Source of the DNA: a virus
Taxonomy: Duplodnaviria > Heunggongvirae > Uroviricota > Caudoviricetes
DNA: 40,308 nucleotides
Strand: one strand, 5' to 3'
Virus record (IMG/VR): IMGVR_UViG_2778261673_000007
Positions 1 to 38,778 of the stretch are shown here, piece by piece. Both the position numbers and the translations under genes were made by a program. Position 1 is the stretch's first letter. Every line of letters begins with the position of its first letter. Under the pieces are notes generated by a model that was not told the origin of the DNA, did no database searches, and saw nothing but the letters and a program-made list of their open reading frames with translations.

Positions 1-465
1 TCACTTTGATTCAATTTTGAAACTTTTTTTAACCACTAAAATCATGCAGCTAATCACTTCTGCAATGAGGTTAAGAGATAGCACGATAGCAAAAAGTTCT
101 AAAGCAGTAAATAGCTTGCCTTTAGAAGGGATAAATTCGTGCTGAGGATAATTTACTAGTGGTATGTCATAATTACGTAAATAGGGAAGGAAGATTGTTA
201 CTGCCAGACACATGACCAGTAATTTCAAATCTAATTCTAAACTATCTAAATAGTCCGTAAAGTCTGTGCTTTTCTCGCCCTTATTAATGACAGCCAAAAT
301 TCCGAAGATAACGGAGATACCTGCGGCAATACCTCCAAGTATTGAACCTATTACTCCAGCAGAAGCCTGCTCAAGTAAGGTATAAATGGTTTTATCAGTC
401 GATGCTAATGCTAAGCACAAAAAGAAGGTAGCTATAGCTTTAATCCAGACAGTTAGATTTTGCAT
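1..465 (-). CDS. Small integral membrane protein, about four predicted TM helices; downstream partner of the 298-aa gene (putative effector of a two-gene cargo module)
   Basis: Complete ORF with stop at 1-3; four hydrophobic stretches in the translation; 26-nt overlap with the upstream gene (440-465) suggests translational coupling; AT-rich relative to the phage structural genes. No family recognised. Confidence 0.5.
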   Translation of the reverse strand: MQNLTVWIKAIATFFLCLALASTDKTIYTLLEQASAGVIGSILGGIAAGISVIFGILAVINKGEKSTDFTDYLDSLELDLKLLVMCLAVTIFLPYLRNYDIPLVNYPQHEFIPSKGKLFTALELFAIVLSLNLIAEVISCMILVVKKSFKIESK

Positions 466-1336
466 TTTTGAACGTATACCTGTTTTGATGTAATGCTATG
501 ATCTCTTTAATATCATTTGCTGAGTAGCCATCAAGTTCAATTTCTGATATCTCACCTTCGATCAGCACGATTTTGGCTGTCTGATTACTGGATACCGTAG
601 TAGATTTTGACTTGAGTGTCTTACGTCCTTTAATCAACCATGACCCGCCACCATCTTTGACCCAGTCAACAAGAGTCTCAGCCCAATGAGAACCTTTGAG
701 TTTCAAATTGCCATCTTTGTTTTCAAAAATAGTGGTCACAGTATTTGCATTGGTATCTTTTTCAAGCTTCCGTAAATCATTGGTTAACGCTTGCTTACTG
801 CTTCCGAAGATATTCGGAGTAATCAGCGTAAAGCTGACTTTGTCGATAAATTGAAGCCTATGGTATTCTGACCAAAAATCTTCCATTTCAAGACAAGGCT
901 CTATAAATATTCTAAGTCCTAACTGAGCCAAATAGTCGTTATTGGCTAGATCTTCAAACGCTTTAGCAACTTGTTGCGCATCCTTGAAAACAGCGGTTTT
1001 CCTCTCAACCAGTAACACCTGCTCTACTTTGTCCCAAATCCATACGATAGGTGGATAGTTGTCTACATCGTACTCTCGAAAGTCTTTATCATGTCCTTTA
1101 ATCTTTTGCAGCTTTGATATGACTCCAGCCATAACACCATCAGTAGGTTTTATGCTCAATTTCAGGGTGTAACTAGTTTTCTTATGAACGGAAGGTGTTG
1201 ATGACGTCATGTGTAAATTTTTTGCAGCGATAACCATAGCATTTTCAAAATGAGAGATATCTTTCTGAACAGTTCCTTTCGAAAAGAGGTCTGGATCGCG
1301 CGGTCTCATTAACACACGTAAGGCATACAACTGCAT
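440..1336 (-). CDS. Hypothetical 298-aa cytoplasmic protein, first gene of an int-proximal two-gene cargo module
   Basis: ATG at 1334-1336 preceded by AGGAG with 8-nt spacing; no TM segments, no P-loop, no HExxH, no recognisable nucleotidyltransferase motif; AT-rich; promoter region upstream carries a LexA box. Confidence 0.55.
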   Translation of the reverse strand: MQLYALRVLMRPRDPDLFSKGTVQKDISHFENAMVIAAKNLHMTSSTPSVHKKTSYTLKLSIKPTDGVMAGVISKLQKIKGHDKDFREYDVDNYPPIVWIWDKVEQVLLVERKTAVFKDAQQVAKAFEDLANNDYLAQLGLRIFIEPCLEMEDFWSEYHRLQFIDKVSFTLITPNIFGSSKQALTNDLRKLEKDTNANTVTTIFENKDGNLKLKGSHWAETLVDWVKDGGGSWLIKGRKTLKSKSTTVSSNQTAKIVLIEGEISEIELDGYSANDIKEIIALHQNRYTFKNAKSNCLD

Positions 1337-1414
1337 AAGAAAACTCCTGTAAACTATTTGGTTTCATTATTCCATAAAACCAAGCACTTTCAAGAGCTTA
1401 ATTTTCTTTCAATT

Positions 1415-1430
1415 CTGTATGCATATACAG
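1415..1430. promoter_or_regulatory. LexA (SOS) box CTGTATGCATATACAG in the promoter region of the two-gene cargo module
   Basis: Perfect CTGT-N8-ACAG palindrome with AT-rich spacer, flanked by t...ta as in the E. coli consensus taCTGTatatatatACAGta; lies in the 115-bp gap between the int stop and the start of the 298-aa gene, near putative -35/-10 elements on the minus strand. Confidence 0.55.
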
Positions 1431-1451
1431 TATCATTCAATTTTGTAAAAT

Positions 1452-2579
1452 TCAAACCTTGATTTTTGCCCATTCCTTACCACGATCATCATGGTATTTA
1501 GCTGTCTGGTTAGGCGATTTATGTCCCAGAAGTTTTTGGGTGTCGACGCCCTGAGCTTCGTAAAGTCGCTCAGATAAAGATCTTTGTTCATGGAATGTGG
1601 CGGGCGAACCTTCACCCCAGTCAATGCCTGCTAAATCCCTCGCTTTACTGAAATTCATCGTCAATGTATTGGCTTTTACTTGCGCGCCACGTTCAGCCTG
1701 TGAAGTAGTACGAAAAAAATGTACAAGGTATGGGCTGACTGCATAGTCACGGCAGCGGGCTACTACATCGCGTAAACTCCAGTTAATTGCATTGAGGCGA
1801 AGGGAAAGCGGGATGGCGATTTTGCTCCCGGTTTTTTCTTGGATGACGTGAAGATGATCATCCCAAATATCGCTAAATTTCATACGTGAGATATCACCTA
1901 ACCGTTGGCCGGTAACCAGTGCTAACAGCATGGCATTCCCCATATAACGATGGCGGGCATCTGCGATATCAAAGATTTTTTGCCATTCTTCAAGACTTAA
2001 CCGTTGTCGGGTAATTTTTCTTCTGGGTTGTTTGGTTGCCAGTGCTGGATTATAGCCCGGAGGGACTTCCCCATAGTGTTGTGCCTCCTTGAATACATCA
2101 ATTAGAACGGAGCGGACTACTTGCGCCATCCTCGGTTGCCCGGCAGTGATATACTCGTCAAGTAATTGTGCTATATCCCTTACATCAACTGATGAAATTA
2201 ATTTCATTCCTGCTCGTTCCCTGAGCAAGGATACTGGTTTGGCTTTCTGTTTATAGGTGTTTAGCTTTATATCGCCACTTTCCAGTCTGTCATCCTGGAT
2301 TGCTTGATAGCGATCTAACCAGGTTGACGTTGTGATTGCTTTTCCTTTGCTGGTTGCGATCCTGTCACTGATAGCCAGAATCTGCCGGGTTCTTTGCTCA
2401 GCCAGGCGTGAATTTGCCTCAGTGGCAATAGCAATGGCTTCAGCTTCGTTTGTGCCTAAAGAATGAAACTTCCCGGTCACTGGATGTTTATATCGCCAAT
2501 AGACTTTATTTACTTTTCTACTATAAAGCGGATACAAGTTCGGGACTGAAACATTATTTTTACGTGGTCTGGCTGCCAT
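1452..2579 (-). CDS. intE: Tyrosine site-specific integrase, e14 IntE-like (375 aa)
   Basis: 375-aa ORF with the phage-integrase C-terminal catalytic region (R...HxxR...Y pattern near ...LGHKSPNQTAKYHD); followed on the same strand by an excisionase-like gene; element sits at icd as e14 does. Confidence 0.85.
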   Translation of the reverse strand: MAARPRKNNVSVPNLYPLYSRKVNKVYWRYKHPVTGKFHSLGTNEAEAIAIATEANSRLAEQRTRQILAISDRIATSKGKAITTSTWLDRYQAIQDDRLESGDIKLNTYKQKAKPVSLLRERAGMKLISSVDVRDIAQLLDEYITAGQPRMAQVVRSVLIDVFKEAQHYGEVPPGYNPALATKQPRRKITRQRLSLEEWQKIFDIADARHRYMGNAMLLALVTGQRLGDISRMKFSDIWDDHLHVIQEKTGSKIAIPLSLRLNAINWSLRDVVARCRDYAVSPYLVHFFRTTSQAERGAQVKANTLTMNFSKARDLAGIDWGEGSPATFHEQRSLSERLYEAQGVDTQKLLGHKSPNQTAKYHDDRGKEWAKIKV

Positions 2580-2805
2580 TACTTAAAATCCTTTGTAGAA
2601 TAATAGAATCATTTTTCTTGATGACAGGAGTAACTAATTCCCCAACTAACTCTGCGTCCTCACGCACTCGCCATAGTCGACCTTGTTTCATTGCCGGTGG
2701 ACAAAATAAATTCTGCTTAGCATAACGACGCAATGTGGACACGCTTGGAGGATTACTTCTGTATTTTTCCGCAGCCCATTCCTCAAGTGTCAGCATTTGA
2801 AGCAT
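2560..2805 (-). CDS. xisE: Excisionase / AlpA-like small DNA-binding protein (likely start at the internal Met, about 81 aa)
   Basis: Small basic ORF immediately upstream of and overlapping int; sequence ...LTLEEWAAEKY...PSVSTLRRYAK...GRLWRVRED typical of phage Xis/AlpA helix-turn-helix proteins. Confidence 0.7.
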   Translation of the reverse strand: MLQMLTLEEWAAEKYRSNPPSVSTLRRYAKQNLFCPPAMKQGRLWRVREDAELVGELVTPVIKKNDSIILQRILSNGSQTT

Positions 2806-2848
2806 TTTTGATAACCTCATTTCTTTTGCTACAAAACTATTTCACTAG

Positions 2849-3397
2849 TTAATTTCGCTGTCTGGATTGTTTATGCATCTTATGCAGCTCTTTAAAGCGT
2901 TCCATAAACATCCCGTAGGCATGGCCCGGTGCCAGTGGAATCACGTTGAACATCTCTGTTGCCGGGATGCCTTCCAGCACAGGCCAGAAAGAGCCATCAT
3001 CAAGCCCGAGATCGCGGCGTTCGGTTGCCAGCATGATGAGATCGGCATATTTCACGGGCGTACTCATAACCGGGGGTAACCCGTATTTCTCACGGATTAC
3101 GGCGTCTATTTTTTCTTCCATCTGTTTATAGTCAGGAAGAAGGCGTTTCAGTGGAGCGGGGATGTCCTGGCAATACACTTCTGTTGCATCATGCATTAAC
3201 GCTTCAAAAGCAAATTCCTGCGGTACCAGTTGGCTGCAAAGAACCGCATGTTGGGCGACGCTGTAGAAGTGTGAAAGATGTCCTGCAAAGCGACAGATAT
3301 TTGAAAGGGAAAACGCGATATCGTTAATAACGATGTCGTCTTTATTTATCCTGTCATAATAAAAATGCTTCCCAGAAAAAGTTTTAATAAATGACAT
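2849..3397 (-). CDS. HD-domain phosphohydrolase (YfdR-like 5'-deoxynucleotidase)
   Basis: Translation contains the H...HD metal-binding pattern (AGHLSHF...ALMHDATE); start placed at the internal ATG (MSFIKTF) preceded by GGAG; the ORF-track start at 3460 is probably too far upstream. Confidence 0.7.
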   Translation of the reverse strand: MSFIKTFSGKHFYYDRINKDDIVINDIAFSLSNICRFAGHLSHFYSVAQHAVLCSQLVPQEFAFEALMHDATEVYCQDIPAPLKRLLPDYKQMEEKIDAVIREKYGLPPVMSTPVKYADLIMLATERRDLGLDDGSFWPVLEGIPATEMFNVIPLAPGHAYGMFMERFKELHKMHKQSRQRN

Positions 3398-3525
3398 TTT
3401 GTTCTCCACGTTATTTGCGCTGCACCGCACTGAATTCTGGTAAAAGGAAGCCCTCACCATCCGGCGATTATTGAGTTAATTACGTTTCCATAAATGCCCC
3501 CGCAGGGGCATTTGCAGTAATCAAA

Positions 3526-4350
3526 TCAGGCGGTGAAAGTACCAATAAAGGTTTCTACTTTGCTGTCTTTGAATTTCTCAACAAGCAGATCGCGAAATTC
3601 GTTAGCCATTTCTTCCTGCACCGCCTCCAGCTGAATAATGCGCAGAACAAGTACAGGACGATCGCCAGTGATAATGCTGAGGCGTAATTTAAAAGAACGT
3701 TCTTTCAGACCTTCAAACGGAACGCATTTAAATTCAAATGCCACTGGCATAATGTCTTTGGTCTTCGCTTCGACAGACTCCATCAGGGAGCGTTTGCCGC
3801 TGAAGTCATTGTCTTCAAAATCAGCAGTCTGGTTCGCTTCAATTGTGATTTTACGGATCGCCGCAGCCGCTTTGGTTGCCTGAATGGCGTCACCATTAGC
3901 ATCAAAGCCCACAAGGTTGTCGGCCCAGTCTTCAATCCATTCTGCCAGTGATTTCTGGGAGTTACGCTCGCCGTGAACAGACAACAGAGCAGAGAACGGT
4001 GCTGTCTTTTTCAGTTTGAGAGTGGCGGTGTTATCTGCGTGGCCTGGTTCATCAATAGTACCCAGGTTAAGCACACTGACGGCACGCATATTATCAGCAT
4101 CGATAAAGCAGCGGGTGCCTTCATCTGCAAGATCTTTAGAATAACGGGTAAAGTCATCAATGCTGGCAGTGGAAAGCGCACCACGGAAACGGAAGCGATT
4201 TAAATTAAATTTTTCCAGGTCATGAATGCGGAAATTCTCAGGCAATGCCACAGCATCGGCACCAATCTTACTGATAATTTCATTAACACCCTGAGCAGAA
4301 ATAAGGGCATGGATTTGATTAATTGCGGTTGCGTCTAAGTTCTGAGACAT
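3526..4350 (-). CDS. YfdQ-like DUF2303-family phage protein (274 aa)
   Basis: 274-aa ORF with GAGGA RBS; sequence and length recalled as matching the YfdQ family of the E. coli CPS-53 prophage early region; adjacent to the HD hydrolase as yfdQ-yfdR are. Confidence 0.6.
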
Positions 4351-4415
4351 AATAAGTCCTCACTATATAAAGATATTCAGTGATGAGATAAATAATCAGT
4401 TAATTAAAAACGATA

Positions 4416-4778
4416 TTAACGACCTGCTGCGCGGAGTTTTCCGTCAGGTTCACCGGCAAGAGTCAGTAACTGTCCCTGGTCTTCCTGCAGAATAGTCAGG
4501 CGACCACCGCGATTGACATACATCGGCGTTTCGGTGGTGTCTTCTTCGGAAATTTTCCCGCGGTTAGTCGGGCGAACATATGAGAGTTTGTGTTTGATTT
4601 TCACTCGGTTCTCATCAAACGGTTCGATTTCCAGGTTGAGTGAGACCTTACCTTTGGTTTTCGTGTTCATCACACCGGAAGCGACTTCACTGAGAACTGC
4701 GCCGATTTTGGTTTCAAATACGCCGCCGTCCAGCTCCCCGATAAATGCCTGCACATCAGTACTGCGTTCGCTAGCCAT
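4416..4778 (-). CDS. Hypothetical early-left-operon protein (about 121 aa; start at internal ATG with GGAG RBS)
   Basis: The ORF-track version (4416-5096) extends into GC-rich, non-protein-like sequence; a GGAG-ATG pair at 4776-4778 gives a compact protein with normal composition. Confidence 0.5.
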   Translation of the reverse strand: MASERSTDVQAFIGELDGGVFETKIGAVLSEVASGVMNTKTKGKVSLNLEIEPFDENRVKIKHKLSYVRPTNRGKISEEDTTETPMYVNRGGRLTILQEDQGQLLTLAGEPDGKLRAAGR

Positions 4779-4826
4779 TTTGCTGCTCCTCATCATATCG
4801 ACCCTGCAAGGCCGATTAGTTTCTCC

Positions 4827-4915
4827 ACAAAACAGAGAAGAACACCTGCGGTGGCAGCCGCCCGGATGGATTGGGTTATGAGCCCGTCGTCCGGTGATGC
4901 TCTTCTCTGTTTTGT
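4827..4915. repeat. 15-bp perfect inverted repeat (ACAAAACAGAGAAGA / TCTTCTCTGTTTTGT) enclosing a 59-nt GC-rich loop
   Basis: Arms at 4827-4841 and 4901-4915 read directly from the sequence; lies in a 470-bp stretch with no credible ORF. Confidence 0.45.
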
Positions 4916-5182
4916 AAAAAGGACGGTACCAGCCGGAAGCAAGGGTACAAACTGGTACCGCCAGGACTACACACAGCATAAAGTTGTGGTGCCGGGTGCC
5001 TCCCGGTGCCTGGCGAAGGTTGCACACCAGGCGGGTGGGTATCCACAGAAGGTCGACTGTCAGCCTCAACCTTAACCCGCGTGCGCTGAGCCGCATTCAC
5101 CACAACGCTAAGGATTCTCTCTGGTTGAAAATACTTAGCTGTTATGTGCCTGCTTTTAGCCACATCAGGCGAGGTGGACCTA

Positions 5183-5231
5183 GTTATTCCCCAACAACAA
5201 GGATTCGGTTAATCTGGTTATCCCCAACAAC
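5183..5231. promoter_or_regulatory. Two direct repeats GTTAT(T/C)CCCCAACAAC 34 bp apart, immediately upstream of the 5247 gene
   Basis: Copies at 5183-5198 and 5217-5231; positioned within about 50 bp of the start codon at 5247; candidate operator or UTR element. Confidence 0.35.
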
Positions 5232-5246
5232 GCAAAAGGAAAAGAA

Positions 5247-5681
5247 ATGTCCGGTAATATCTATACGCTGTACAAATCCCACTGTGAAAATGTTGGAAAG
5301 TATCGGGGCATTGAAATCAGTGGGGTAGTGCCATCAGTCGAAATAAGCAAAGTTGAATCAAGGGCAACATTACTTACTCTTTTGGACCTTGTCTTACATG
5401 AGCACCGGAAGAAATTCGGCACTCCCTATAATCAGTTGAATGGGAAAAAGGCTCTGGTTCACCTTATTCTGATGAAGCATCACTGGATGCCAAAACAGAT
5501 TAATGAGATGAAATTTGATGAACTTCTTCTTTCAATTCAGGATGAACTCACACTTGATAAAATAAGCGTAACCGCCCAGAAATTTTTAGATTATCGAGAC
5601 TGGAGATCACAAATTCATCACTTTGATGATTTTGACGAAAATGAATGGGATCCTAATTTGTCTGCACAATATCTAAAGTAA
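5247..5681 (+). CDS. Hypothetical 144-aa protein, oriented against the leftward early operon (possible lysogeny-expressed moron)
   Basis: ATG ORF with AAAGGAAAAG upstream; AT-rich; convergent with and overlapping the minus-strand small gene at 5653-5681; no family recognised. Confidence 0.5.
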   Translation: MSGNIYTLYKSHCENVGKYRGIEISGVVPSVEISKVESRATLLTLLDLVLHEHRKKFGTPYNQLNGKKALVHLILMKHHWMPKQINEMKFDELLLSIQDELTLDKISVTAQKFLDYRDWRSQIHHFDDFDENEWDPNLSAQYLK

Positions 5682-5859
5682 CATCCTGTGATAAAACCGT
5701 GATTTCCTGATCCAGTTTTTTTAAGGAGTCTATTGTTTCCTGTCGATAAGACAGCACTTCACGAAGCTGGTTTATAGCTGCCAGCTTCTTTGTCATCCAC
5801 TCATAAATTTCCTCATCTGTGTAGCCAGGCGCGACGATTTTGGGTTCTGTTTTGTGCAT
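5653..5859 (-). CDS. Hypothetical small protein (about 68 aa) at the head of the leftward operon
   Basis: Internal ATG (MHKTEPK) preceded by AGGAGATGTGAA; lies just downstream of the putative OL/pL region. Confidence 0.4.
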   Translation of the reverse strand: MHKTEPKIVAPGYTDEEIYEWMTKKLAAINQLREVLSYRQETIDSLKKLDQEITVLSQDVTLDIVQTN

Positions 5860-6093: not shown

Positions 6094-6768
6094 TTAGGCT
6101 TTGATTTTGTATCTTCTTGGTTTTCCTGAGAAAATCACTGTACCAATTATAGAGCAATTACCGTTGATCTTAATGTAAGGCTCAGGCCAGTTTGGGTTTA
6201 ACGCTTTGAGATAACGCTGTGTCCCATCTTCTATCAACCTTTTGAAGGTGGTTTCACCTGTATCGTGCATCAATGCAATAACGTCGTCACCGTGGCAGGC
6301 AGGTACTTCAGGATCGACAAAAATCATGTCTCCCGGGCGGTACTCATCAATCATTGAATCACCTATCACCCGCAAGATATAAGTCATTTCCCCACAGGGT
6401 ACAGGGCAGGGATACGTTTCTGCTGTGCTCAAATCAACCTCAGAATATCCAACTTCTTTCCATGCTCCGGCCTGTACCCATGATATGACAGGGACTAATG
6501 TGATTTGTTTATTAGTGATTGAAACATCAGGTTTTTTTGTGATGTTCGTTGTCTGGTGTTCTTGATCGAGCCATCCGACAGGCAGGTCGAAACATTTTTC
6601 GATGTGTCGTGCCATGCTGTCACCGATATTTTTAGTAGCACCATCTCCCATAAACCTGCTGGTCTGGGTTGGCTCGCGATCAATCATAGTGGCAAAGGAA
6701 GAATTCCCGCCAACACCATCTCTCAGTTTTCTGGCGTTAGACCGCCGGATGTCATGGATTGTTTTCAT
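6094..6768 (-). CDS. cohE: CI-like prophage repressor: N-terminal HTH, C-terminal S24 LexA-type self-cleaving peptidase domain
   Basis: 224 aa; C-terminal region contains the GDSM serine motif and a downstream Lys (TFKRL) typical of S24 peptidases; divergent from a Cro-like gene across an operator-rich intergenic region; size matches the e14 repressor. Confidence 0.8.
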   Translation of the reverse strand: MKTIHDIRRSNARKLRDGVGGNSSFATMIDREPTQTSRFMGDGATKNIGDSMARHIEKCFDLPVGWLDQEHQTTNITKKPDVSITNKQITLVPVISWVQAGAWKEVGYSEVDLSTAETYPCPVPCGEMTYILRVIGDSMIDEYRPGDMIFVDPEVPACHGDDVIALMHDTGETTFKRLIEDGTQRYLKALNPNWPEPYIKINGNCSIIGTVIFSGKPRRYKIKA

Positions 6769-7995: not shown

Positions 7996-8015
7996 AGGTC
8001 GGTCATGAGCACTAA
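7836..8015 (+). CDS. Possible small overlapping gene (59 aa, TTG start) not in the ORF track
   Basis: AAGGAGA 8 nt upstream of TTG at 7836; translation ...[51 protein letters not shown] has normal protein-like composition; ends at TAA 8013-8015, overlapping the start of the replication gene. Confidence 0.3.
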
Positions 8016-8976
8016 ATTAACCGGCTATGTATGGGATGGTTGCGCAGCGTCAGGCATGAAATTATCCAGCGTGGCAATTATGGCACGCCTGGCTGATTTC
8101 AGTAATGACGAAGGTGTGTGCTGGCCATCAATTGAAACCATTGCCCGTCAGATTGGCGCGGGGATGAGTACCGTCAGAACGGCTATCGCACGGCTGGAAG
8201 CAGAAGGCTGGTTAACGCGTAAGGCGCGTCGCCAGGGTAACCGCAATGCGTCGAACGTCTATCAGCTTAACGTTGCAAAGCTTCAGGCTGCGGCACTTTC
8301 TCAACTGTCAGATTCTGACCCGTCAAAATCTGACCCGTCAAAATCTGACACATCAAAATCTGACGCATCAAAATCTGACCCGTCAAAATTTGATGCGTCG
8401 AAATCTGGCAAAAAAGCGGGTTTTCACCCGTCAGAATCTGGCGGGGATCCGTCAGTAAAATCAAAACATGATCCGTCAGATAAAAAACCTTCTCGTCCGG
8501 ACGCTTCGCAACCGGACACGCAGACGGATGAACAGGATTTTTTAACTCGCCATCCTGATGCGGTTGTATTCAGCCCTAAAAAGCGCCAGTGGGGAACGCA
8601 GGATGATTTGACCTGCGCACAGTGGCTCTGGAAAAAAATCATCGCCCTGTACGAGCAAGCCGCCGAATGTGACGGCGAGGTGGTTCGTCCCAAAGAACCG
8701 AACTGGACAGCCTGGGCAAACGAAATTCGCCTGATGTGTGTGCAGGATGGTCGTACTCACAAACAAATCTGCGAGATGTACAGCCGCGTCAGCCGCGATC
8801 CGTTCTGGTGCCGTAACGTGCTCAGCCCGTCGAAGTTGCGGGAAAAATGGGATGAGCTTTCCCTGCGCTTATCACCGTCCGTCAGCACGTACACCGAAAA
8901 ACGCGAAGACCCGTACTTCAAATCCAGTTACGACAACGTGGACTACAGCCAGATCCCGGCAGGATTCAGGGGGTGA
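8005..8976 (+). CDS. Replication initiator protein (lambda O-like), N-terminal HTH, central repeat-encoded linker
   Basis: Position after cro/cII-like genes; N-terminal helix-turn-helix-like segment; internal tandem DNA repeats (iterons) encoding SDPSKSD repeats, as in lambdoid O genes that contain the origin. Confidence 0.7.
   Translation: MSTKLTGYVWDGCAASGMKLSSVAIMARLADFSNDEGVCWPSIETIARQIGAGMSTVRTAIARLEAEGWLTRKARRQGNRNASNVYQLNVAKLQAAALSQLSDSDPSKSDPSKSDTSKSDASKSDPSKFDASKSGKKAGFHPSESGGDPSVKSKHDPSDKKPSRPDASQPDTQTDEQDFLTRHPDAVVFSPKKRQWGTQDDLTCAQWLWKKIIALYEQAAECDGEVVRPKEPNWTAWANEIRLMCVQDGRTHKQICEMYSRVSRDPFWCRNVLSPSKLREKWDELSLRLSPSVSTYTEKREDPYFKSSYDNVDYSQIPAGFRG
8308..8412. repeat. Seven tandem 15-bp repeats (TCAAAATCTGACCCG and variants): putative origin iterons inside the initiator gene
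   Basis: Read directly: units at 8308, 8323, 8338, 8353, 8368, 8383, 8398, with degenerate copies to about 8480 and an A-rich stretch downstream. Confidence 0.6.
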
Positions 8977-13073: not shown

Positions 13074-13820
13074 TTAATCTGGCATTATGGTAGATAATTG
13101 TGGGCTAGGTTTAACCCCGTAGGTTTCTGATATTCTTTTAACGTTGATACCTACGATTTTTCTGACAGCTCCCAACGAAAATTCTAACTCTTTAATCCCT
13201 GCGTCTTTAGAAGTGTTGTTCATATAATAACGGCATGCTTCTCGAATTGACTTGCAAACGATAAATAGAGGTGATTCATCTGGGATTTGAGAAAGCAAAG
13301 AGGTCAAACATGTTCTTAACTCTTTGAGTGATTCGGCAACAAAACAGGGGTTTTCAAGATGATATTCTACGAACAAAGCCCCTTTATCATCCAATTCATT
13401 TATAATCTTTTTTGCCAGATTTCTTTCATCATGCTGTTGAATATATTTCAAAGCATCGAAGGTAATATTAATCGAACCTTCAAGACAGGAGCTTATAAGG
13501 CTTTCATGATCTTTTTTCCATTTTCTTAATACAGGTGCCGGATAGTCTAGCCCCTGATTCTTATCTATTAATACAGAACAAGTAGCACACAGCCATATGC
13601 CATTGTTAATTGACTTCCTTTCTGTTTCTGATTGTGACATGTCATAGCGTGGGCCATCAGGAGATGCTGCACATATGTGAGCAGCAACTCCTGTCTTGAT
13701 TGATTTATTGCCATCAATTGATGGGCCAATGGTCAATCTAGGGCATGAAGGGTTTGAACAAATGAATGCTGCCCGCTCTGCTAATTTTTTTATAGTGTCT
13801 TTAGAAAAATTATGTCGCAT
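13074..13820 (-). CDS. AT-rich cargo gene: 248-aa protein with N-terminal HNH-like Cys/His nuclease motif and unknown C-terminal domain
   Basis: CSNPSC ... AAHICA ... NNGIWLCATC arrangement resembles a zinc-ribbon HNH nuclease; oriented opposite to flanking phage genes; distinctly lower GC; sits between Q and the late promoter. Confidence 0.5.
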   Translation of the reverse strand: MRHNFSKDTIKKLAERAAFICSNPSCPRLTIGPSIDGNKSIKTGVAAHICAASPDGPRYDMSQSETERKSINNGIWLCATCSVLIDKNQGLDYPAPVLRKWKKDHESLISSCLEGSINITFDALKYIQQHDERNLAKKIINELDDKGALFVEYHLENPCFVAESLKELRTCLTSLLSQIPDESPLFIVCKSIREACRYYMNNTSKDAGIKELEFSLGAVRKIVGINVKRISETYGVKPSPQLSTIMPD

Positions 13821-33481: not shown

Positions 33482-34120
33482 ATGCATCGTATAGACACGA
33501 AAACCGCGCAGAAGGATAAGTTCGGCGCGGGTAAGAACGGTTTTACCCGTGGTAACCCCCAGACCGGCACGCCTGCCACCGATCTGGATGATGACTACTT
33601 TGACATGTTGCAGGAGGAACTTTGCAGCGTGGTGGAGGCATCCGGTGCCAGCCTGGAGAAGGGGCGGCACGACCAGTTACTTACCGCACTTCGCGCGCTG
33701 CTGTTAAGCCGCAAGAATCCGTTTGGCGATATCAAATCGGATGGCACTGTGCAAACGGCTCTCGAAAACCTTGGTTTGGGAGAATTATCTCTGGCTGGCA
33801 CTGCATCGGGTGTCATTGGTCTGAATGGGTATGTAACGATTCCGTTAATTATTTCAGGTTCCCGGAGAACACTGATTATTCAGTGGGGGCAGGCGAGATT
33901 TGGTGGGTCTGGTGGTGAAGATGCCGGATATCTTAATGATTTTCCTTTTGCCTTTCCGTCAGCATGTTATGGGGTGATAGTTAGTCATGTGGGGTATACA
34001 CCTTCAGGCGCAGGAATCCTGTCGGCTTCTGCCATTACATCAAATCAGTTCCGCGGTTTTTCAAGCATAGCGACTGCTGCAAACGCTGTATTTGGTCGTT
34101 ATATCGCTATAGGGGTGTAA
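33482..34120 (+). CDS. Tail fibre protein: constant N-terminal part fused to the currently expressed variable C-terminal part
   Basis: N-terminal tail-fibre-like region; a gix/hix-like recombination site lies inside the gene at codon ~93; followed by a tail fibre assembly gene. Confidence 0.65.
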
Positions 34121-34121
34121 T

Positions 34122-34559
34122 ATGTTTTATAGTCCATCTTTAAACATTTTTGTGAATCCTGCACTTAAGGATGATTACATTAATGCAAATTCATGGCCAG
34201 ATGATGCTCTGGCTGTCAGTGATGATGTTTATAATAAATTTGCAATAAATACGCCCCCAGATGGCAAAATTCGTGTTGCAGGAGAGAATGGATTACCCAC
34301 ATGGGCACTAATACCTCCACCATCACATGAAGAACTTATTCAACAGGCAGAATCAGAAAGGCAATTATTGCTTAATCAGGCCAACGAATACATGAACAGT
34401 AAACAATGGCCCGGTAAAGCCGCTATTGGTCGTCTGAAAGACGAGGAACTGGCGCAATATAATTTGTGGCTGGATTACCTGGACGCACTGGAGCTGGTTG
34501 ATACCTCCAGTGTGCCAGATATTGAATGGCCTACGCCTCCGGCAGTTCAGGCCAGATGA
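34122..34559 (+). CDS. Tail fibre assembly protein (expressed orientation)
   Basis: 145 aa with C-terminal ...LWLDYLDALELVDTS...WP motif typical of Tfa chaperones. Confidence 0.7.
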   Translation: MFYSPSLNIFVNPALKDDYINANSWPDDALAVSDDVYNKFAINTPPDGKIRVAGENGLPTWALIPPPSHEELIQQAESERQLLLNQANEYMNSKQWPGKAAIGRLKDEELAQYNLWLDYLDALELVDTSSVPDIEWPTPPAVQAR

Positions 34560-35133
34560 CATCCGGCGCTGTGCTGGTATCTGTTGCCGTCACCGCGTCA
34601 ATGTAATCCAGCACAGTGTTAAGTCGGGTGGTCTCTGCCTGCATCAGCTTCCGCCCGGCCTGCAATTTAAGTTGAATCAGACTAATGGAAGCCATTGCAG
34701 TATTAATCAGTGACTGACGCTGTACTTCTGCCGCGTCTACTGCGGCGCTATGCTGTGCCTCAGTATCGGTCACCCATTTCTTACCATCCCATTTATCGAA
34801 TGGCGTTAACGGGGCGATAGTGGTTGTATTTTCAGGATAATCACCCGGAGCTGTGATTTCTTTGGCGTCTCCCGTTTCGGTGTTATAGACGATTTCACCG
34901 CGATGGTCTGGCACATATTCCCATGAGTTTAAATCCATCGAACGGCAGATAGCATAACCCGCCTTATGTATACCAGGTTCATCCAGACAGGAATATGCAG
35001 GGATACCGACACCAATGGCAAGATATTCATTTGAAGTAGAAATATATTCCCGAGTTTTACCATCATAGTTATAGACGGTAATATTCCCCGCCTTCGTGGC
35101 AATAAGCTCGCTATTTAATACGGCGTTATCCAT
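34531..35133 (-). CDS. Alternative tail fibre assembly protein (inverted orientation, TfaE-like)
   Basis: 200 aa; C-terminal ...LDYIDAVTATDTS...WPELP motif; convergent with and overlapping the other tfa. Confidence 0.7.
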   Translation of the reverse strand: MDNAVLNSELIATKAGNITVYNYDGKTREYISTSNEYLAIGVGIPAYSCLDEPGIHKAGYAICRSMDLNSWEYVPDHRGEIVYNTETGDAKEITAPGDYPENTTTIAPLTPFDKWDGKKWVTDTEAQHSAAVDAAEVQRQSLINTAMASISLIQLKLQAGRKLMQAETTRLNTVLDYIDAVTATDTSTAPDVIWPELPEA

Positions 35134-35654
35134 TATGCAGCCCTCACGATATAGTTAAATGCAATATTTCGTGGACGGGTTTCACTCCCGCCAGTATTAC
35201 CGATACTCCCTCGTGAATGAAGTGTCGGTGATGGGATCAGACTCCCTCCTGTATTTGTGGCATCAAGTCCCCGTCCTTGTGTGTATGTCTTTTTGAAAAT
35301 CGTAGCCAGTTCCCATTCATCTTTTGTGTCGTAACCATCATTGGCAACAACAATATGGCGGTGTTTTTCCAGCATCCCTGTCTGAATGCTCAATAAAACA
35401 CGTCCTGCATCAATACCGCGCCCGTCATCCCAGCCACGAATAAACTCACCACGTAAATCAGGCAATTTATTTGTCGGATAAGCCTTTGCCAGTTCCGGGT
35501 ATTCTTCAGCAGAAAAAGCCGCACCGTTGCATTTCAGCCAGCCTGTTGGCGGTGTGGCTGAAGGCCATGGAACAGGCACACCAACAGGTAATGCAGAGCC
35601 TTCTCCCAAACCAACGTTTATGAAAATGCAGAAATAACGAGCAAATGGCATCAT
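35133..35654 (-). CDS. Alternative tail fibre variable C-terminal segment (silent until inversion)
   Basis: Contains the conserved fibre-tip segment PVGVPVPWP...GWL.CNGAAFS...YPELAKAYP...LPDLRGEFIRGWDDGRG; its 5' end lies at the right recombination site. Confidence 0.6.
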   Translation of the reverse strand: MMPFARYFCIFINVGLGEGSALPVGVPVPWPSATPPTGWLKCNGAAFSAEEYPELAKAYPTNKLPDLRGEFIRGWDDGRGIDAGRVLLSIQTGMLEKHRHIVVANDGYDTKDEWELATIFKKTYTQGRGLDATNTGGSLIPSPTLHSRGSIGNTGGSETRPRNIAFNYIVRAA

Positions 35655-35680
35655 TCCTGCTTTTGTCAGAGGGATCCACT

Positions 35681-35872
35681 ATGCTTATTGGCTATGTACG
35701 CGTATCAATAAATGACCAGAACACAGATCTACAACGTAATGCGTTGAACTGTGCAGGATGCGAGCTGATTTTTGAAGACAAGATAAGCGGTACAAAGTCC
35801 GAGAGCCTAGGGCTGACAGTGCTGTTCTTGATGCAAATTAAAGGATTTAATAGTGAGTTGCGGCCTTACTAA
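35681..35872 (+). pseudogene. pinE: Truncated, degenerate Pin/Gin/Hin-family serine invertase (only about 64 codons)
   Basis: First ~35 residues MLIGYVRVSINDQNTDLQRNALNCAGCELIFEDKISG match the invertase N-terminus including the catalytic Ser region; sequence then diverges and stops, far short of the ~190 aa of intact invertases. Confidence 0.65.
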
Positions 35873-35883
35873 TGTAAGGCCGC
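35860..35883. other. Perfect 10-bp inverted repeat hairpin (GCGGCCTTAC-taat-GTAAGGCCGC) at the junction between the invertase remnant and the AT-rich cargo gene
   Basis: Read directly; followed on the plus strand by a T-rich stretch. Confidence 0.45.
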
Positions 35884-35905
35884 TATAATCATTTTATTAA
35901 TTGCA

Positions 35906-37795
35906 TTAATCGTATTTTGGCCATACTTTCAATGCAATTTCCCCCAACTTTTTACCTCGCTCCAGTATTTCACTCTCATCCCATTTATCCTTAAGTATAA
36001 GTGGTATGTTCAGTCGTAGATTGGTGTGGACGATGAGAGCATCACGTTTTTTCAGAAATACAGCATTCTGAACGGAACGGTTTACGCTAAGGTTAAGCAA
36101 AGTTAGATTTCCCAACGTAGCTATCGCTTGTTGCCGTTTCCTTACCAGTAGCTGTTCAGGGGTAAGATCGGTTCCAGACAGAACAATTTGGTTCATTACC
36201 GTAGCATCTGAATTTGTCACCATATGACCATTTTCGAGAGGCCAACAGGAATACCAACTTTGAGGCATAAGATGATCGATATCGAGATTAGAAAGATTTG
36301 GAACATCAGGCTTTTCTGTCTTCACTTGGCGACAAAGTTCTCTTTCAAGTTCCGTTAACATTGAGCGCATTTTCGGTGCGTCGAGCCTGCCAGGATAAAG
36401 TGGAGCATTGATGCAAGCGTTGAGAAATTCTGAGTCCCCAGGCCAACGTGAGGCTTCGCCATTTAAGCTATTGAGGATATTACGTAACTCAATACTGGAA
36501 ATTTCCGTTTTAGACAAGTGTCGCAATACATTCATAAATACATTGTTGTAATTCTTTGGCGTCAGGCCACATACGGATCTTCGTACTACGTAGGAGACAA
36601 GATCATTATACATGGCTGCTTTCTCATCATCGGCGATGTTAGCTATCGAAATGAACAAAGCAAGCGGATAGAGTGTCGTCACATCATAGGCTGCGATGCG
36701 ATGTCCAAAGTGTGAGATGGGGGTTGTGCCAAAACCACCAACCAATTCTTTATATTGTGATGCATATTGTTTGAGGCGCTTTACTTGCAGATCTGCTCGT
36801 TGTGAAGGCAAGTCCTTACTTACATAATCACGATACTCATTGTAAAGGCGAGACAGATCAATTTCACGCTGCCTTTCTGATTGCAATGTCGCATGTACAA
36901 GCCACTCCATGCGTGGTTTATTAATACGTCCACGGCGTTGCTTTTCCGACCAGTATTTATCTTCAAAGATCTTCCACTCATTTTCATATAATTCAATAGT
37001 ATTAATATTTTCATGCTCAGCGCACATAAAGATATAGTTGCGAATAAGATCCGTTGCATGAAGTTCCGCTCCTCGCCCATTTAATGTTTCAAAAATTATT
37101 TGGGCATCATCTTCAGCTTCGAGAAATATGCTTACCAGTTTCAGATCCGTCAAGACAGCCTCAATTAGTGCTACAGCATTTTCTTGTGGTGAGCGGTTTT
37201 CTATTTTAATCCATTTTATAAAGGCTTCAGTAAAAAACCATAATGCCTCTAGTGACGGCGGGTGGTTGAAATGTTTACGTAACGTACCATGTTGCGTGAA
37301 GCTATCAGAAAATACATTACGGAGATCGTCAATATTATCAACATTAAGACTTTGAATAAAATGAGTTTGATCTCGAAAAGTTGGCCACAGTTTGAAGCAT
37401 TCTACCTTTTTATTTCTCATCGTTGCTTCGTTTGTATTTTTCAAGCAAGTCAATACTAACCCTTCCAGTTCAGAAAGGCCTGTAGCACGCAATGATAATC
37501 GAATGGATGCCAGAATATATTGAAGAGTGGTTAAACGTTGCTGGCCGTCAATAATATGTATGGTATCTACACCTAACAAGCTGTTTTTGAGTTGAGGTTC
37601 CAGCACCACCGCGCCGAGGAAATGAGGGGTTGGTTTTGTTCCCGAAAGTCGGCTCTGTGCTTTTTCGAAGATATCCTCCAGCAAAGCTGACCATTGGTTT
37701 CGTTGCGTCCATACGTAGGCACGTTGATAGAATGGAACACGATATTGTCGTTGATTTTGGAAAATTTGCTGGATGGTTAGCGTTTCGGATTTCAT
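35906..37795 (-). CDS. GmrSD-family type IV (modification-dependent) restriction endonuclease: N-terminal DUF262, C-terminal DUF1524/HNH-like
   Basis: N-terminal VPFYQRAYVW and IIDGQQRLTTL motifs (DUF262 NTPase-like); C-terminal DIDHLMPQS and GNLTLLNLSVNRSVQNAVFLKKR motifs (DUF1524 nuclease); 629 aa; strongly AT-rich relative to flanking phage DNA. Confidence 0.8.
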   Translation of the reverse strand: MKSETLTIQQIFQNQRQYRVPFYQRAYVWTQRNQWSALLEDIFEKAQSRLSGTKPTPHFLGAVVLEPQLKNSLLGVDTIHIIDGQQRLTTLQYILASIRLSLRATGLSELEGLVLTCLKNTNEATMRNKKVECFKLWPTFRDQTHFIQSLNVDNIDDLRNVFSDSFTQHGTLRKHFNHPPSLEALWFFTEAFIKWIKIENRSPQENAVALIEAVLTDLKLVSIFLEAEDDAQIIFETLNGRGAELHATDLIRNYIFMCAEHENINTIELYENEWKIFEDKYWSEKQRRGRINKPRMEWLVHATLQSERQREIDLSRLYNEYRDYVSKDLPSQRADLQVKRLKQYASQYKELVGGFGTTPISHFGHRIAAYDVTTLYPLALFISIANIADDEKAAMYNDLVSYVVRRSVCGLTPKNYNNVFMNVLRHLSKTEISSIELRNILNSLNGEASRWPGDSEFLNACINAPLYPGRLDAPKMRSMLTELERELCRQVKTEKPDVPNLSNLDIDHLMPQSWYSCWPLENGHMVTNSDATVMNQIVLSGTDLTPEQLLVRKRQQAIATLGNLTLLNLSVNRSVQNAVFLKKRDALIVHTNLRLNIPLILKDKWDESEILERGKKLGEIALKVWPKYD

Positions 37796-38051
37796 TGTTT
37801 ACCTATAAATAACATTAAGTGACATTCTACAAGAGTAAGAAATTCATCTGAGTCAGAACAATCATTTTTATGTAGTTATGATACAGTGTATTTGTTACTG
37901 GTGAAGTAAAAATAAGAAACCCCGCTTTTGAATGCTGACGCGCTACGGTTTCATTGGATATTTTTTGTCTCTCCTCCATCCCGTTGGTGTTCTGTTTAGA
38001 CTGATAACTTGCTGTTTTAATTGATATTAGTTTCTTGCGCCGCCCAATCAT

Positions 38052-38077
38052 GGTTGGTGGGTTGGTGGGTTGGTGGG
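38052..38077. repeat. Tandem repeat (GGTTGGTG)x3
   Basis: Read directly, about 260 bp upstream of the GmrSD gene start. Confidence 0.5.
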
Positions 38078-38622
38078 AGTTAAATCCACATTGGTATGAA
38101 TAACATAGAATATGAATTAGTGTTTCAGAATTGCTTCAGCCATCACTTTTTAATACGTTCAATTTGAATGTTTATTTCCGAAACAATTTTTTCAGGTTTC
38201 AGTCCCTCGTTAGATTGCACAAAATCTCTAATTTGCATCATTCGATGTGCACAAATTTGTAATTCGCTATAAACACTTAGCTCGTCAGATTCATTTTGAG
38301 ATTGTTCACCTGTTTAAAATTCTACATAAGTATGTGGCGGATTGTGATAAACACGAGAAATCGGGGTTGGCCACCATTCCTCACCGGTCACTACGTCCGC
38401 ATCGAATAGTACAGTTTTGTCAATTTCCATTAATTTCTGGATAAGAACAGAAGTTTTCAAGCGAACCTCCATTTTGCCATAAAGTGGTTATCAAAACGCT
38501 ACGTAAACTATACAAAATCAGCGAGTTATGGTGAAGGTAAAAAAACAAGTTTAGATGTTCGTTAAGTATAAAATTGTTTTAATTCAATTGGATATAATAA
38601 TTTTCTAAATCTAATGCTGCGC

Positions 38623-38778
38623 CATATGGGTTGGACTGAAGCGGCTGACCTGATTGTTAAAGGTATGGAAGGCGCAATCAATGCCAAGACCGTAACTTAT
38701 GACTTCGAACGTCTGATGGAAGGCGCTAAGCTGCTGAAATGTTCAGAGTTTGGTGAAGCGATCATCGAAAACATGTAA
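38623..38778 (+). pseudogene. icd: Displaced 3' fragment of isocitrate dehydrogenase gene (last ~52 codons), marking the prophage-host junction
   Basis: Translation [51 protein letters not shown] matches the Icd C-terminus as recalled; homology begins abruptly after AT-rich sequence at about 38620; no upstream icd coding sequence present. Confidence 0.8.

What the first reader, a model, noticed from the sequence alone, without database searches (positions are those of the whole stretch)
35681..37795. GmrSD-type type IV restriction enzyme inserted where the invertase is truncated
A 629-aa DUF262 + DUF1524 protein (motifs FYQR.YVW, DGQQR, DIDHLMPQS) lies on an AT-rich segment that begins exactly where the pin-type invertase loses homology (about codon 35-64). 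In K-12 e14 the equivalent position carries intact pin followed by the type IV enzyme McrA. The same hotspot has therefore exchanged one modification-dependent nuclease for an unrelated one, at the cost of the invertase.
Basis: partly seen in the sequence, partly recalled or inferred. Interest (0 to 1): 0.6.

Follow-up and report, generated by a model that had tools for sequence, protein, structure and literature searches.

The report
Prototype GmrSD restriction enzyme on prophage
The gene is a near-identical copy (4 differences in 629 residues) of GmrSD, an already characterised E. coli prophage enzyme that cuts the sugar-modified DNA of T4-like phages, so the finding is correct but ordinary.

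Summary
Window 35906-37795 (- strand) encodes an intact 629-aa protein with Pfam GmrSD_N and GmrSD_C domains. It abuts a stub of a pin-type invertase at 35681-35872.

The enzyme is not a new GmrSD-type protein. It is 99.36% identical (4 of 629 residues differ) to both the founding enzyme EcoCT596GmrSD and the purified Eco94GmrSD. Every residue mutated in that study (D507, H508, N522 and others) is conserved.

The context reading is also right. This is the right end of a full-length prophage integrated in icd. Homology to K-12 e14 stops at pin codon 42-49 and resumes 8 bp before the icd fragment. A 2787-bp, 39% GC segment stands where e14 has the pin 3' end, mcrA and a spacer (1584 bp).

One correction: the swap was not local. 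The same pin'::gmrSD junction occurs in 301 of 304 gmrSD-carrying complete E. coli genomes, in prophages at four attachment sites. Related prophages carry McrA, PD-T4-3, a type II R-M system or unknown genes at this position, so it is a cargo hotspot.

Verdict: already known, low interest.

The parts
35906..37795 (-). gmrSD: single-chain Type IV modification-dependent restriction endonuclease, 629 aa, 72.8 kDa. It belongs to the CT596/Eco94 allele group.
   Evidence: Intact ORF. Pfam GmrSD_N and GmrSD_C hits. PADLOC mREase_IV match at 1516 bits, full length. 625 of 629 residues identical to EcoCT596GmrSD and to Eco94GmrSD. The exact sequence is on 351 public contigs.
37028..37774 (-). N-terminal DUF262/GmrSD_N domain (residues 8-256). 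The literature describes it as a ParB/Srx-like NTPase. The DGQQR motif is at 37535-37549.
   Evidence: Domain hit. Motif coordinates. The role of DGQQR in nucleotide hydrolysis is taken from PMC4619093 and PMC8565348.
35939..36445 (-). C-terminal DUF1524/GmrSD_C His-Me (HNH) nuclease domain (residues 451-619). D507-H508 lie at 36272-36277 and N522 at 36230-36232.
   Evidence: D507A, H508A and N522A abolish cleavage in Eco94GmrSD (PMC4437046).
35681..35872 (+). pin': a 5' stub of a Pin/Gin-type serine DNA invertase. It has 63 codons, of which only codons 1-49 are homologous to the 184-aa PinE. Pseudogene.
   Evidence: Resolvase N-terminal hit on residues 3-47. BLASTP against K-12 PinE: 43 of 49 identical. 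DNA alignment. RefSeq annotates the equivalent as 'recombinase family protein, incomplete, missing C-terminus'. UTI89 and APEC O78 carry an additional 1-nt deletion, so the ORF is not conserved.
35860..35883 (.). Perfect 10-bp-stem, 4-nt-loop hairpin. It overlaps the pin' stop codon (35870-35872) and ends 22 nt before the gmrSD stop codon (35906-35908). Inferred to be a terminator for the convergent transcripts.
   Evidence: MFE -25.5 (+ strand) and -20.6 (- strand) kcal/mol for the 71-nt context. It was not flagged by the terminator scan because there is no T-run. The function is an inference.
37796..38016 (-). Upstream region of gmrSD that travels with the gene. It marks the right end of the ~2.4-kb cassette shared between prophages at different attachment sites, and presumably holds the promoter.
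   Evidence: Cross-locus homology runs from 35592/35600 to 37966-38016 at 91-96% identity. One sigma-70-like match lies at 37905-37878, but promoter-like matches in the region are not above chance (10 found against 8.1 +/- 2.9 expected).
35817..38603 (.). The whole low-GC (39.3%) segment that stands in place of e14's pin 3' end, mcrA and spacer (1584 bp in K-12).
   Evidence: blastn against K-12 e14: homology covers window 35382-35816, then resumes at 38604. GC content.
38120..38472 (-). Pseudogene of a small (~113-aa) hypothetical protein that is intact next to attR in other icd-integrated prophages. Here it has an in-frame stop and a frameshift.
   Evidence: tblastn: 90 of 104 residues identical, with a stop at query position 49 and a frame change near the C-terminus. 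The segment occurs in 59 genomes.
38614..38778 (+). Displaced 3' fragment of icd (the icdC equivalent) at attR. The prophage ends just before it.
   Evidence: 99.8% identical to K-12 from 8 bp before icdC onward. Translation. RefSeq annotation.
33766..33784 (.). Left crossover site of the invertible tail-fibre segment.
   Evidence: 19-nt inverted repeat, paired with 35601-35619. Chance expectation is 0.02 matches.
35601..35619 (.). Right crossover site of the invertible tail-fibre segment, 62 nt upstream of pin'. It is also the left edge of the cassette conserved across attachment sites.

Best explanation
Identity. The ORF is gmrSD, the single-chain Type IV (modification-dependent) restriction endonuclease first found in E. 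coli CT596. It is carried as cargo at the right end of a full-length SfII/e14-like prophage integrated in icd.

Mechanism, taken from published work on enzymes 99.4% identical to this one and on the homologue BrxU.
- The N-terminal DUF262 (ParB/Srx-like) domain binds and hydrolyses NTPs through the DGQQR motif.
- The C-terminal DUF1524 domain is a His-Me/HNH nuclease with D507-H508-N522.
- Together they cleave incoming DNA containing 5-hydroxymethylcytosine or glucosyl-hmC, as in T-even phages, in an NTP-stimulated reaction.
- The enzyme protects the lysogen and its prophage from such phages, unless the phage co-injects the inhibitor IPI*.

What is shown here: the identity, the domain architecture, conservation of the catalytic residues, and the genomic anatomy. 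What is inferred: that this particular allele is active, and how it is expressed.

Locus history. A roughly 2.4-kb cassette spans the crossover site, the pin 5' stub, a hairpin, gmrSD in reverse orientation and about 220 bp of its upstream region. It arose once, by a cargo insertion or replacement that removed pin from codon 42-49 onward. It has since spread among related prophages by recombination in the flanking conserved sequences.
For: Identity and architecture.
- Pfam GmrSD_N 2.1e-33 and GmrSD_C 3.8e-19.
- PADLOC mREase_IV, 1516 bits, positions 1-629 of 629.
- Only 4 of 629 residues differ from CT596GmrSD (R201H, T266A, I435V, L611Q) and 4 of 629 from Eco94GmrSD (R201H, T266A, R316H, I435V). 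Sequences came from supplementary Fig. S1 of PMC4437046.
- All 16 residues mutated in that paper are the same residue here.

Published activity.
- Eco94GmrSD cuts T4 DNA in an ATP-stimulated reaction. It restricts T4 lacking ip1 more than 10^6-fold. D507A, H508A and N522A are inactive.
- The CT596 system is a single GmrSD protein inhibited by Ip1 (PMC12373910).

Context.
- The window contains integrase, an S24-type repressor and tail genes.
- RefSeq annotates tail fibre genes, a partial recombinase, a DUF262 protein, a partial icd and iraM in strain E4.
- He et al. describe the same setting: a 41.5-kb SfII-like prophage with the gene just downstream of the tail-fibre genes.

Spread as a module.
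- The junction is shared by 301 of 304 gmrSD-positive genomes.
- It is found at four attachment sites.
- The window's own invertible tail-fibre segment is 98.3-99.2% identical to segments that sit next to intact pinE in other genomes. That homology ends at pin nt 122-136.
Against: - No activity assay exists for this exact allele. Its 4 substitutions are untested.
- The 92.7%-identical UTI89 enzyme was inactive in vitro on T4, T2 and T6 DNA (supplement of PMC4437046), so near-identity does not guarantee the same activity.
- No promoter could be assigned, because consensus matches were at chance level.
- The single-origin claim rests on the identical junction in five aligned loci plus coverage counts. 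No phylogeny was built.
Confidence: 0.93

Rival explanations
1. The gene is an intact but functionally silent or altered-specificity allele. It would not restrict glucosyl-hmC phages, as reported in vitro for the UTI89 homologue.
For: Purified UTI89 GmrSD was inactive on T4, T2 and T6 DNA and on hmC or glucosyl-hmC oligonucleotides. The window allele has 4 untested substitutions: R201H, T266A and I435V against both reference enzymes, plus L611Q (against CT596) or R316H (against Eco94).
Against: All 46 positions that distinguish the window protein from UTI89 were listed. At 43 of them the window carries the CT596/Eco94 residue. The catalytic and motif residues are intact. The exact protein is on 351 contigs and the ORF is intact in 299 complete genomes, which is consistent with selection.
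Confidence: 0.06
2. In-place exchange: GmrSD replaced McrA directly within an e14 element at icd, truncating that element's own pin. This is the literal reading of the first reader's last sentence.
For: Same attachment site, same flanking host genes (icd', iraM, ycgX), and the same pin 5' end, crossover site and ymfQ/baseplate homology as e14.
Against: The same junction is found at ssrA (UTI89), at a pao-adjacent site (MB15) and at tRNA-Pro/yejM (APEC O78), with gmrSD alleles diverged by 3-7%. It occurs in 301 genomes, whereas only 54 have the window-like icd arrangement. The attR-proximal 540 bp (about 38063-38603) is unrelated to e14 but is shared with other icd prophages that carry a type II R-M system and PD-T4-3. 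The window prophage is full length, unlike the 15-kb e14.
Confidence: 0.08
3. The DUF262/DUF1524 protein is a component of a larger system, BrxU-in-BREX or SspE-in-Ssp style, rather than a stand-alone restriction enzyme.
For: PADLOC gives weaker hits to SspE (E 1.6e-14) and to Orf5/HEC-06 models. GmrSD homologues are embedded in BREX loci (PMC8565348, PMC12373910).
Against: The neighbours are a pin stub, a small pseudogene and the icd fragment. No BREX, Ssp or Dnd genes are nearby. Eco94GmrSD alone restricts phage when expressed from a plasmid. The SspE hits cover only the N-terminal ~100 residues.
Confidence: 0.02

Closest known systems
EcoCT596GmrSD (prototype; Bair & Black 2007, re-sequenced as a single chain) and Eco94GmrSD (ECSTEC94C_1402, WP_000834395; He et al. 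2015, PMC4437046)
   Same: Same length (629 aa) and 99.36% identity to each. Same motifs and catalytic residues. Same setting on an SfII-like prophage, just beyond the tail-fibre genes and next to an invertase remnant.
   Different: Four substitutions each: R201H, T266A and I435V against both, plus L611Q against CT596 or R316H against Eco94. The attachment sites of the CT596 and STEC_94C prophages were not given in the papers read, so identity of the chromosomal site could not be checked.
EcoUTI89GmrSD (UTI89_C2960, 'UT enzyme')
   Same: 629 aa, 92.7% protein identity and 93.2% DNA identity. Same pin'::gmrSD junction and same upstream ~220 bp.
   Different: The prophage is at ssrA, not icd. 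The pin stub carries an extra 1-nt deletion. There are 46 substitutions, 29 of them in residues 1-186. The enzyme is reported inactive in vitro, and the UTI89 strain does not restrict T4 or T4 lacking IPI.
BrxU (E. fergusonii pEFER; first GmrSD-family crystal structure, PMC8565348)
   Same: DUF262 plus DUF1524 architecture, DGQQR and DHxxP motifs, and NTP-stimulated cleavage of DNA with modified cytosine.
   Different: About 13% identity to GmrSD according to that paper. phmmer against PDB sequences did not retrieve it at E <= 0.01. It is embedded in a plasmid BREX locus and also cuts 5mC DNA. It undergoes an ATP-driven dimer-to-monomer cycle, which has not been shown for GmrSD.
EcoKMcrA of e14 (positional counterpart)
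   Same: A Type IV modification-dependent nuclease carried as cargo between pin and attR of an icd-integrated prophage. The reviews read class both as HNH/His-Me nucleases.
   Different: No detectable sequence similarity. It is 277 aa against 629 aa, and lies on the + strand downstream of an intact pinE. It targets 5mC (C5mCGG) rather than hmC or glucosyl-hmC, and has no NTPase domain.
PDB 9jfl 'DUF262 domain-containing protein' (596 aa)
   Same: The only solved chain found by sequence. It matches the N-terminal domain, residues 2-261, at E 1.8e-07.
   Different: A distant relative. The C-terminal domain match is not significant.

Membership tests
[quoted passage not shown] | N-terminal DUF262 / GmrSD_N (PF03235) domain above the Pfam gathering score | tested here: met
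   116.6 bits against a cut-off of 33.2. Residues 8-256 cover model positions 1-199 of 199.
[quoted passage not shown] | (I/V)(I/V)DGQQRLTT motif in the N-terminal domain | tested here: met
   IIDGQQRLTTL, with DGQQR at residues 83-87. Motif definition from PMC4619093.
[quoted passage not shown] | C-terminal DUF1524 / GmrSD_C (PF07510) domain above the gathering score | tested here: met
   69.4 bits against a cut-off of 23. Residues 451-619 cover model positions 1-137 of 138.
[quoted passage not shown] | His-Me/HNH motifs (I/L/V)(E/D)H(I/L/V)xPQ and L(G/A)NLxLLxxxN, with catalytic D507-H508-N522 | tested here: met
   IDHLMPQ at 506-512, LGNLTLLNLSVN present, and D507, H508, N522, C517, N528 and N535 all conserved.
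[quoted passage not shown] | Near-identity to a biochemically characterised member | tested here: met
   625 of 629 residues identical to CT596GmrSD and to Eco94GmrSD.
[quoted passage not shown] | NTP-stimulated cleavage of hmC and glucosyl-hmC DNA, and in vivo restriction of T-even phages lacking IPI* | not testable with these tools
   Reported for Eco94GmrSD and CT596 (PMC4437046; PMC12373910). Not assayed for this allele.
Pin/Gin/Hin serine DNA invertases (applied to ORF 35681-35872) | Complete resolvase catalytic domain (~140 aa) followed by a C-terminal HTH DNA-binding domain | tested here: not met
   Only model positions 2-54 of 145 are matched. Only PinE residues 1-49 of 184 align. RefSeq marks the equivalent as a pseudogene. 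This is a remnant, not a member with function.
Pin/Gin/Hin serine DNA invertases (applied to ORF 35681-35872) | Adjacent invertible segment bounded by inverted crossover sites | tested here: met
   19-nt inverted repeats at 33766-33784 and 35601-35619 flank opposed tail-fibre and assembly gene pairs.
e14 cryptic prophage of K-12 | Integration in icd with a displaced icd 3' fragment at attR | tested here: met
   The icd fragment is at 38614-38778. The sequence is 99.8% identical to K-12 from 8 bp before icdC onward.
e14 cryptic prophage of K-12 | e14 gene content at the right end (intact pinE, mcrA) and a defective ~15-kb structure | tested here: not met
   The pin 3' end and mcrA are absent, and the attR-proximal DNA is unrelated. 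The window holds a full set of integrase, repressor, terminase-sized, tail-sheath and baseplate ORFs over about 37 kb. It is a relative sharing the attachment site and some modules, not e14 itself.

The most novel reading that the evidence does not exclude
The conserved pin 5' stub plus the adjacent crossover site may act as a shared homology 'handle'. Through it, defence cargo (GmrSD, McrA, PD-T4-3, a type II R-M system, unknown ORFs) would be shuffled among SfII/e14-like prophages at different attachment sites. Cargo insertions that destroy pin would be tolerated repeatedly because invertases from co-resident prophages can act in trans. Two breakpoints are seen: codon 42-49 here and about codon 88 in phage vB_EcoM-611R5. 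Under this reading the tail-fibre switch would remain invertible despite loss of its own recombinase.
Probability: 0.3. Interest if true: 0.35.

Novelty: already known. Interest (0 to 1): 0.15.

Why it matters
The finding adds little new. The enzyme, its activity, its catalytic residues, its phage-encoded inhibitor and its location beside tail-fibre genes and an invertase on a prophage are all published.

Its practical value is for annotation. RefSeq still labels this gene only as 'DUF262 domain-containing protein', although it is the prototype GmrSD allele group. About 5.6% of complete E. coli genomes (304 of 5426) carry it or its UTI89-type variant. That is relevant when choosing hosts or predicting susceptibility to T-even therapeutic phages.

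There is one modest new descriptive point. The region just beyond pin in this prophage family is a defence-cargo hotspot, and the pin'::gmrSD junction is a single, widely disseminated module.

Tried and rejected
- Promoter and terminator consensus scan of 35550-38650. Matches were at chance level (10 against 8.1 +/- 2.9 promoters; 3 against 2.2 terminators), so no promoter is claimed.
- NCBIfam scan of the protein: no family hit.
- PDB sequence search: only one weak N-terminal hit, 9jfl. BrxU was not retrieved. I did not run structure prediction or a fold search, because 99.4% identity to a characterised enzyme already settles the family.
- The 'phages' collection has no record containing gmrSD. 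Only the pin 5' end matched.
- Test for inversion after pin loss. I searched with the window's tail-fibre segment computationally flipped and with the native arrangement. Neither orientation of this particular segment is joined to pin'::gmrSD in any complete genome. The best matches (98.3-99.2%) sit next to intact pinE. The segment is in the opposite orientation in UTI89, MB15 and LST200A. Those segments are only 88-92% identical to the window's, so in-trans inversion cannot be distinguished from recombination.
- A third crossover-like site at the cassette's right end: none found.
- Literature search for a prior statement that gmrSD occupies the mcrA position of e14, or that pin is truncated: none in the papers searched. 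Adjacency to an invertase was already noted.
- Pfam, PADLOC and PHROG scans of the two ORFs at the window's left end: no hits.
Full report
**1. The observation**

The window has an intact 629-codon ORF on the minus strand at 35906-37795.

Pfam places GmrSD_N (PF03235, formerly DUF262) on residues 8-256 with E = 2.1e-33. It places GmrSD_C (PF07510, formerly DUF1524) on residues 451-619 with E = 3.8e-19. Both are well above their gathering scores. The PADLOC model mREase_IV PDLC03655 matches from residue 1 to 629 at 1516 bits. A score that high means the model was built from essentially this protein.

Immediately to the left, on the plus strand, 35681-35872 encodes MLIGYVRVS..., the start of a Pin-type serine invertase. 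Only the first third of the resolvase domain is present.

**2. What the protein is**

He et al. 2015 (PMC4437046) purified Eco94GmrSD, a 629-aa protein from E. coli STEC_94C. Their supplementary Figure S1 prints it aligned with the re-sequenced single-chain prototype EcoCT596GmrSD and with the UTI89 enzyme. I rebuilt those sequences and compared them with the window protein.

| Reference enzyme | Differences | Identity | Substitutions |
|---|---|---|---|
| EcoCT596GmrSD | 4 of 629 | 99.36% | R201H, T266A, I435V, L611Q |
| Eco94GmrSD | 4 of 629 | 99.36% | R201H, T266A, R316H, I435V |
| UTI89 GmrSD | 46 of 629 | 92.69% | 29 of the 46 lie in residues 1-186 |

All sixteen residues mutated in that paper are the same here. 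They are D217, E228, D230, D249, E260, E262, E271, E273, E278, K280, D507, H508, C517, N522, N528 and N535.

The window therefore carries the prototype GmrSD allele group, not merely a 'GmrSD-type' protein. The exact sequence is on 351 public contigs, where it is named only 'DUF262 domain-containing protein'.

**3. How it works (from the literature, not tested here)**

- Eco94GmrSD cuts T4 DNA (glucosyl-hmC) and hmC DNA in a reaction stimulated by NTPs or dNTPs.
- It restricts T4 lacking ip1 more than a million-fold, but only weakly restricts wild-type T4.
- D507A, H508A and N522A abolish cleavage.
- The CT596 system is a single GmrSD polypeptide inhibited by the injected T4 protein Ip1 (PMC12373910).
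- Machnicka et al. assign a ParB/Srx-like NTPase fold with the DGQQR motif to the N-terminal domain. They assign an HNH/His-Me nuclease to the C-terminal domain (PMC4619093).
- The BrxU structure supports that layout and adds an ATP-driven dimer-to-monomer cycle (PMC8565348).

Mutation of the DGQQR motif has been done in BrxU (Q101A). I did not see it reported for GmrSD itself in the papers read.

**4. Genomic context**

The window is a full-length prophage. It has a lambda-type integrase (1452-2579), an S24-peptidase repressor (6094-6768), and large ORFs of terminase, sheath, tape-measure and baseplate size.

Its right end abuts a displaced icd 3' fragment (38614-38778), followed by iraM and ycgX. 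That is the e14 attachment site. In K-12 the order is stfE, pinE (intact, 184 aa), mcrA, icdC, iraM.

blastn of the window against K-12 gives homology at 35382-35816, ending at pin nt 136. Homology then disappears until 38604, 8 bp before icdC, where identity is 99.8%.

At the protein level the stub matches PinE residues 1-49, 43 of 49 identical. Apart from T10I it is identical through residue 42 and degenerate from 43 to 49.

So 2787 bp of 39.3% GC DNA stand where e14 has 1584 bp (the pin 3' end, mcrA and a spacer). The rest of the prophage is 51.5% GC. GmrSD and McrA have no detectable sequence similarity.

**5. The exchange was not local to e14**

gmrSD of this lineage is in 304 of 5426 complete E. 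coli genomes, always chromosomal. Identity is >= 99% in 56 genomes, 95-99% in 29 and 90-95% in 218. A 425-nt query spanning the pin'::gmrSD junction is covered >= 80% in 301 genomes. Only 54 genomes have the window-like icd arrangement.

I fetched three other contexts:
- UTI89, where the prophage is next to ssrA.
- MB15, where it is next to paoD and a LysR fragment.
- APEC O78, where it is next to tRNA-Pro/yejM.

In all three, RefSeq annotates a C-terminally truncated recombinase pseudogene abutting the DUF262 gene. The DNA alignment shows the same breakpoint in each. UTI89 and APEC O78 also carry a 1-nt deletion in the stub, so the stub ORF itself is not conserved.

Homology between these loci and the window runs from the right crossover site (35592-35600) to 37966-38016, at 91-96% identity. 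This defines a cassette of about 2.4 kb: crossover site, pin stub, a 10-bp-stem hairpin at 35860-35883, gmrSD, and about 220 bp upstream of gmrSD.

The simplest history is one truncation event followed by spread of the module. In support, the window's own invertible tail-fibre segment is 98.3-99.2% identical to segments that sit beside intact pinE in other genomes. That homology stops at pin nt 122-136.

**6. Is it a hotspot? Yes.**

| Prophage or genome | What lies beyond pin or the tail-fibre genes |
|---|---|
| K-12 e14 | McrA |
| 8GC and EC190486 (icd prophages) | PD-T4-3-type GIY-YIG protein plus a type II R-M system. They share the attR-proximal ~540 bp with the window |
| BS15R-A | Intact pinE followed by PD-T4-3 |
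| Strain 0-4 (ssrA) | Intact pinE followed by three hypothetical proteins |
| Induced phage vB_EcoM-611R5 | pin truncated at about codon 88 by a reverse-oriented 281-aa ORF of unknown function |

**7. What is left between gmrSD and attR**

- Window 38120-38472 (-) is a pseudogene of a ~113-aa hypothetical protein that is intact in those other icd prophages. Here it has one in-frame stop and one frameshift.
- An 8-mer (GGTTGGTG) is repeated 3.2 times at 38052-38077.
- No promoter can be assigned with confidence, because consensus matches in the region are at chance level.

**8. Consequence for the invertase**

The cis-encoded Pin is dead, but both 19-nt crossover sites are intact. The segment is in the opposite orientation in UTI89, MB15 and LST200A relative to the window. 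Those segments are only 88-92% identical to the window's, so I cannot tell in-trans inversion from recombination.

pin 5' sequences occur in 1492 of 5426 genomes, up to four places per genome. From general knowledge, Din-family invertases complement each other, so inversion in trans is plausible. It is untested here.

**9. Prior knowledge of the context**

- He et al. already state that the gene is on a 41.5-kb SfII-like prophage, immediately downstream of the tail-fibre genes.
- I found no paper stating that pin is truncated, or that the position corresponds to mcrA of e14. That is a small descriptive addition.

**10. Verdict**

The thing itself is already known: the prototype Type IV enzyme GmrSD on its usual prophage module. 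Interest is low (0.15).

The most novel reading still open is that the pin stub and crossover site serve as a recombination handle for shuffling defence cargo among these prophages, with recurrent loss of pin tolerated through trans-acting invertases. I put its probability at about 0.3. It would be of modest interest if true.

Noticed in passing
window 13074-13820 (- strand): A 248-aa ORF lies on the opposite strand to its neighbours. Its N-terminal ~130 residues match the PADLOC candidate defence model PDC-M68A (7.5e-27) and CBASS-effector/SAVED-HNH-type endonuclease models. There is no Pfam hit. It may be a second defence 'moron' in the same prophage.
   Followed up: partly
window 1-465 and 440-1336 (- strand): Two ORFs (154 and 298 aa, 38% GC) sit between the integrase and the attL side, where e14 has ymfD, ymfE and lit. 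They have no Pfam, PADLOC or PHROG hit. RefSeq annotates them as hypothetical proteins, and they are present in only 32 of 5426 complete genomes at >= 99% identity.
   Followed up: partly
window 38120-38472 (- strand): Pseudogene (in-frame stop plus frameshift) of a ~113-aa hypothetical protein. The gene is intact next to attR in other icd-integrated prophages (L007 5058-5399, 87% identical).
   Followed up: yes
window 38052-38077: A perfect 8-mer tandem repeat, GGTTGGTG x 3.2, lies just outside the right edge of the conserved gmrSD cassette. Match spans of 587 nt against about 611 nt in other genomes suggest the copy number varies.
   Followed up: no
L009 (phage vB_EcoM-611R5, ON470588.1) 4582-5746: A second, independent pin truncation. 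The invertase ORF is 104 codons, with PinE homology lost at about residue 88. It abuts a reverse-oriented 281-aa ORF with no PADLOC hit.
   Followed up: partly
L007 (strain 8GC) 911-4767; L008 (EC190486); L011 (BS15R-A) 7997-8770: Other prophages of this family carry different defence genes at the same position. These are a PD-T4-3-type GIY-YIG protein (PADLOC 7.6e-140) and a type II R-M pair (C5 methyltransferase plus REase_II, 1.5e-233). In BS15R-A, PD-T4-3 follows an intact pinE.
   Followed up: partly
window 33766-35619 compared with L003, L004 and L006: The invertible tail-fibre segment is in the opposite orientation in UTI89, MB15 and LST200A, although all share the dead pin. The segments are only 88-92% identical to the window's, so in-trans inversion cannot be distinguished from recombination.
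   Followed up: partly
window 35708-35710 (pin' codon 10): The window's pin stub has T10I, next to the catalytic Ser9. This change is absent from the other four aligned loci, which is consistent with drift in a pseudogene.
   Followed up: no
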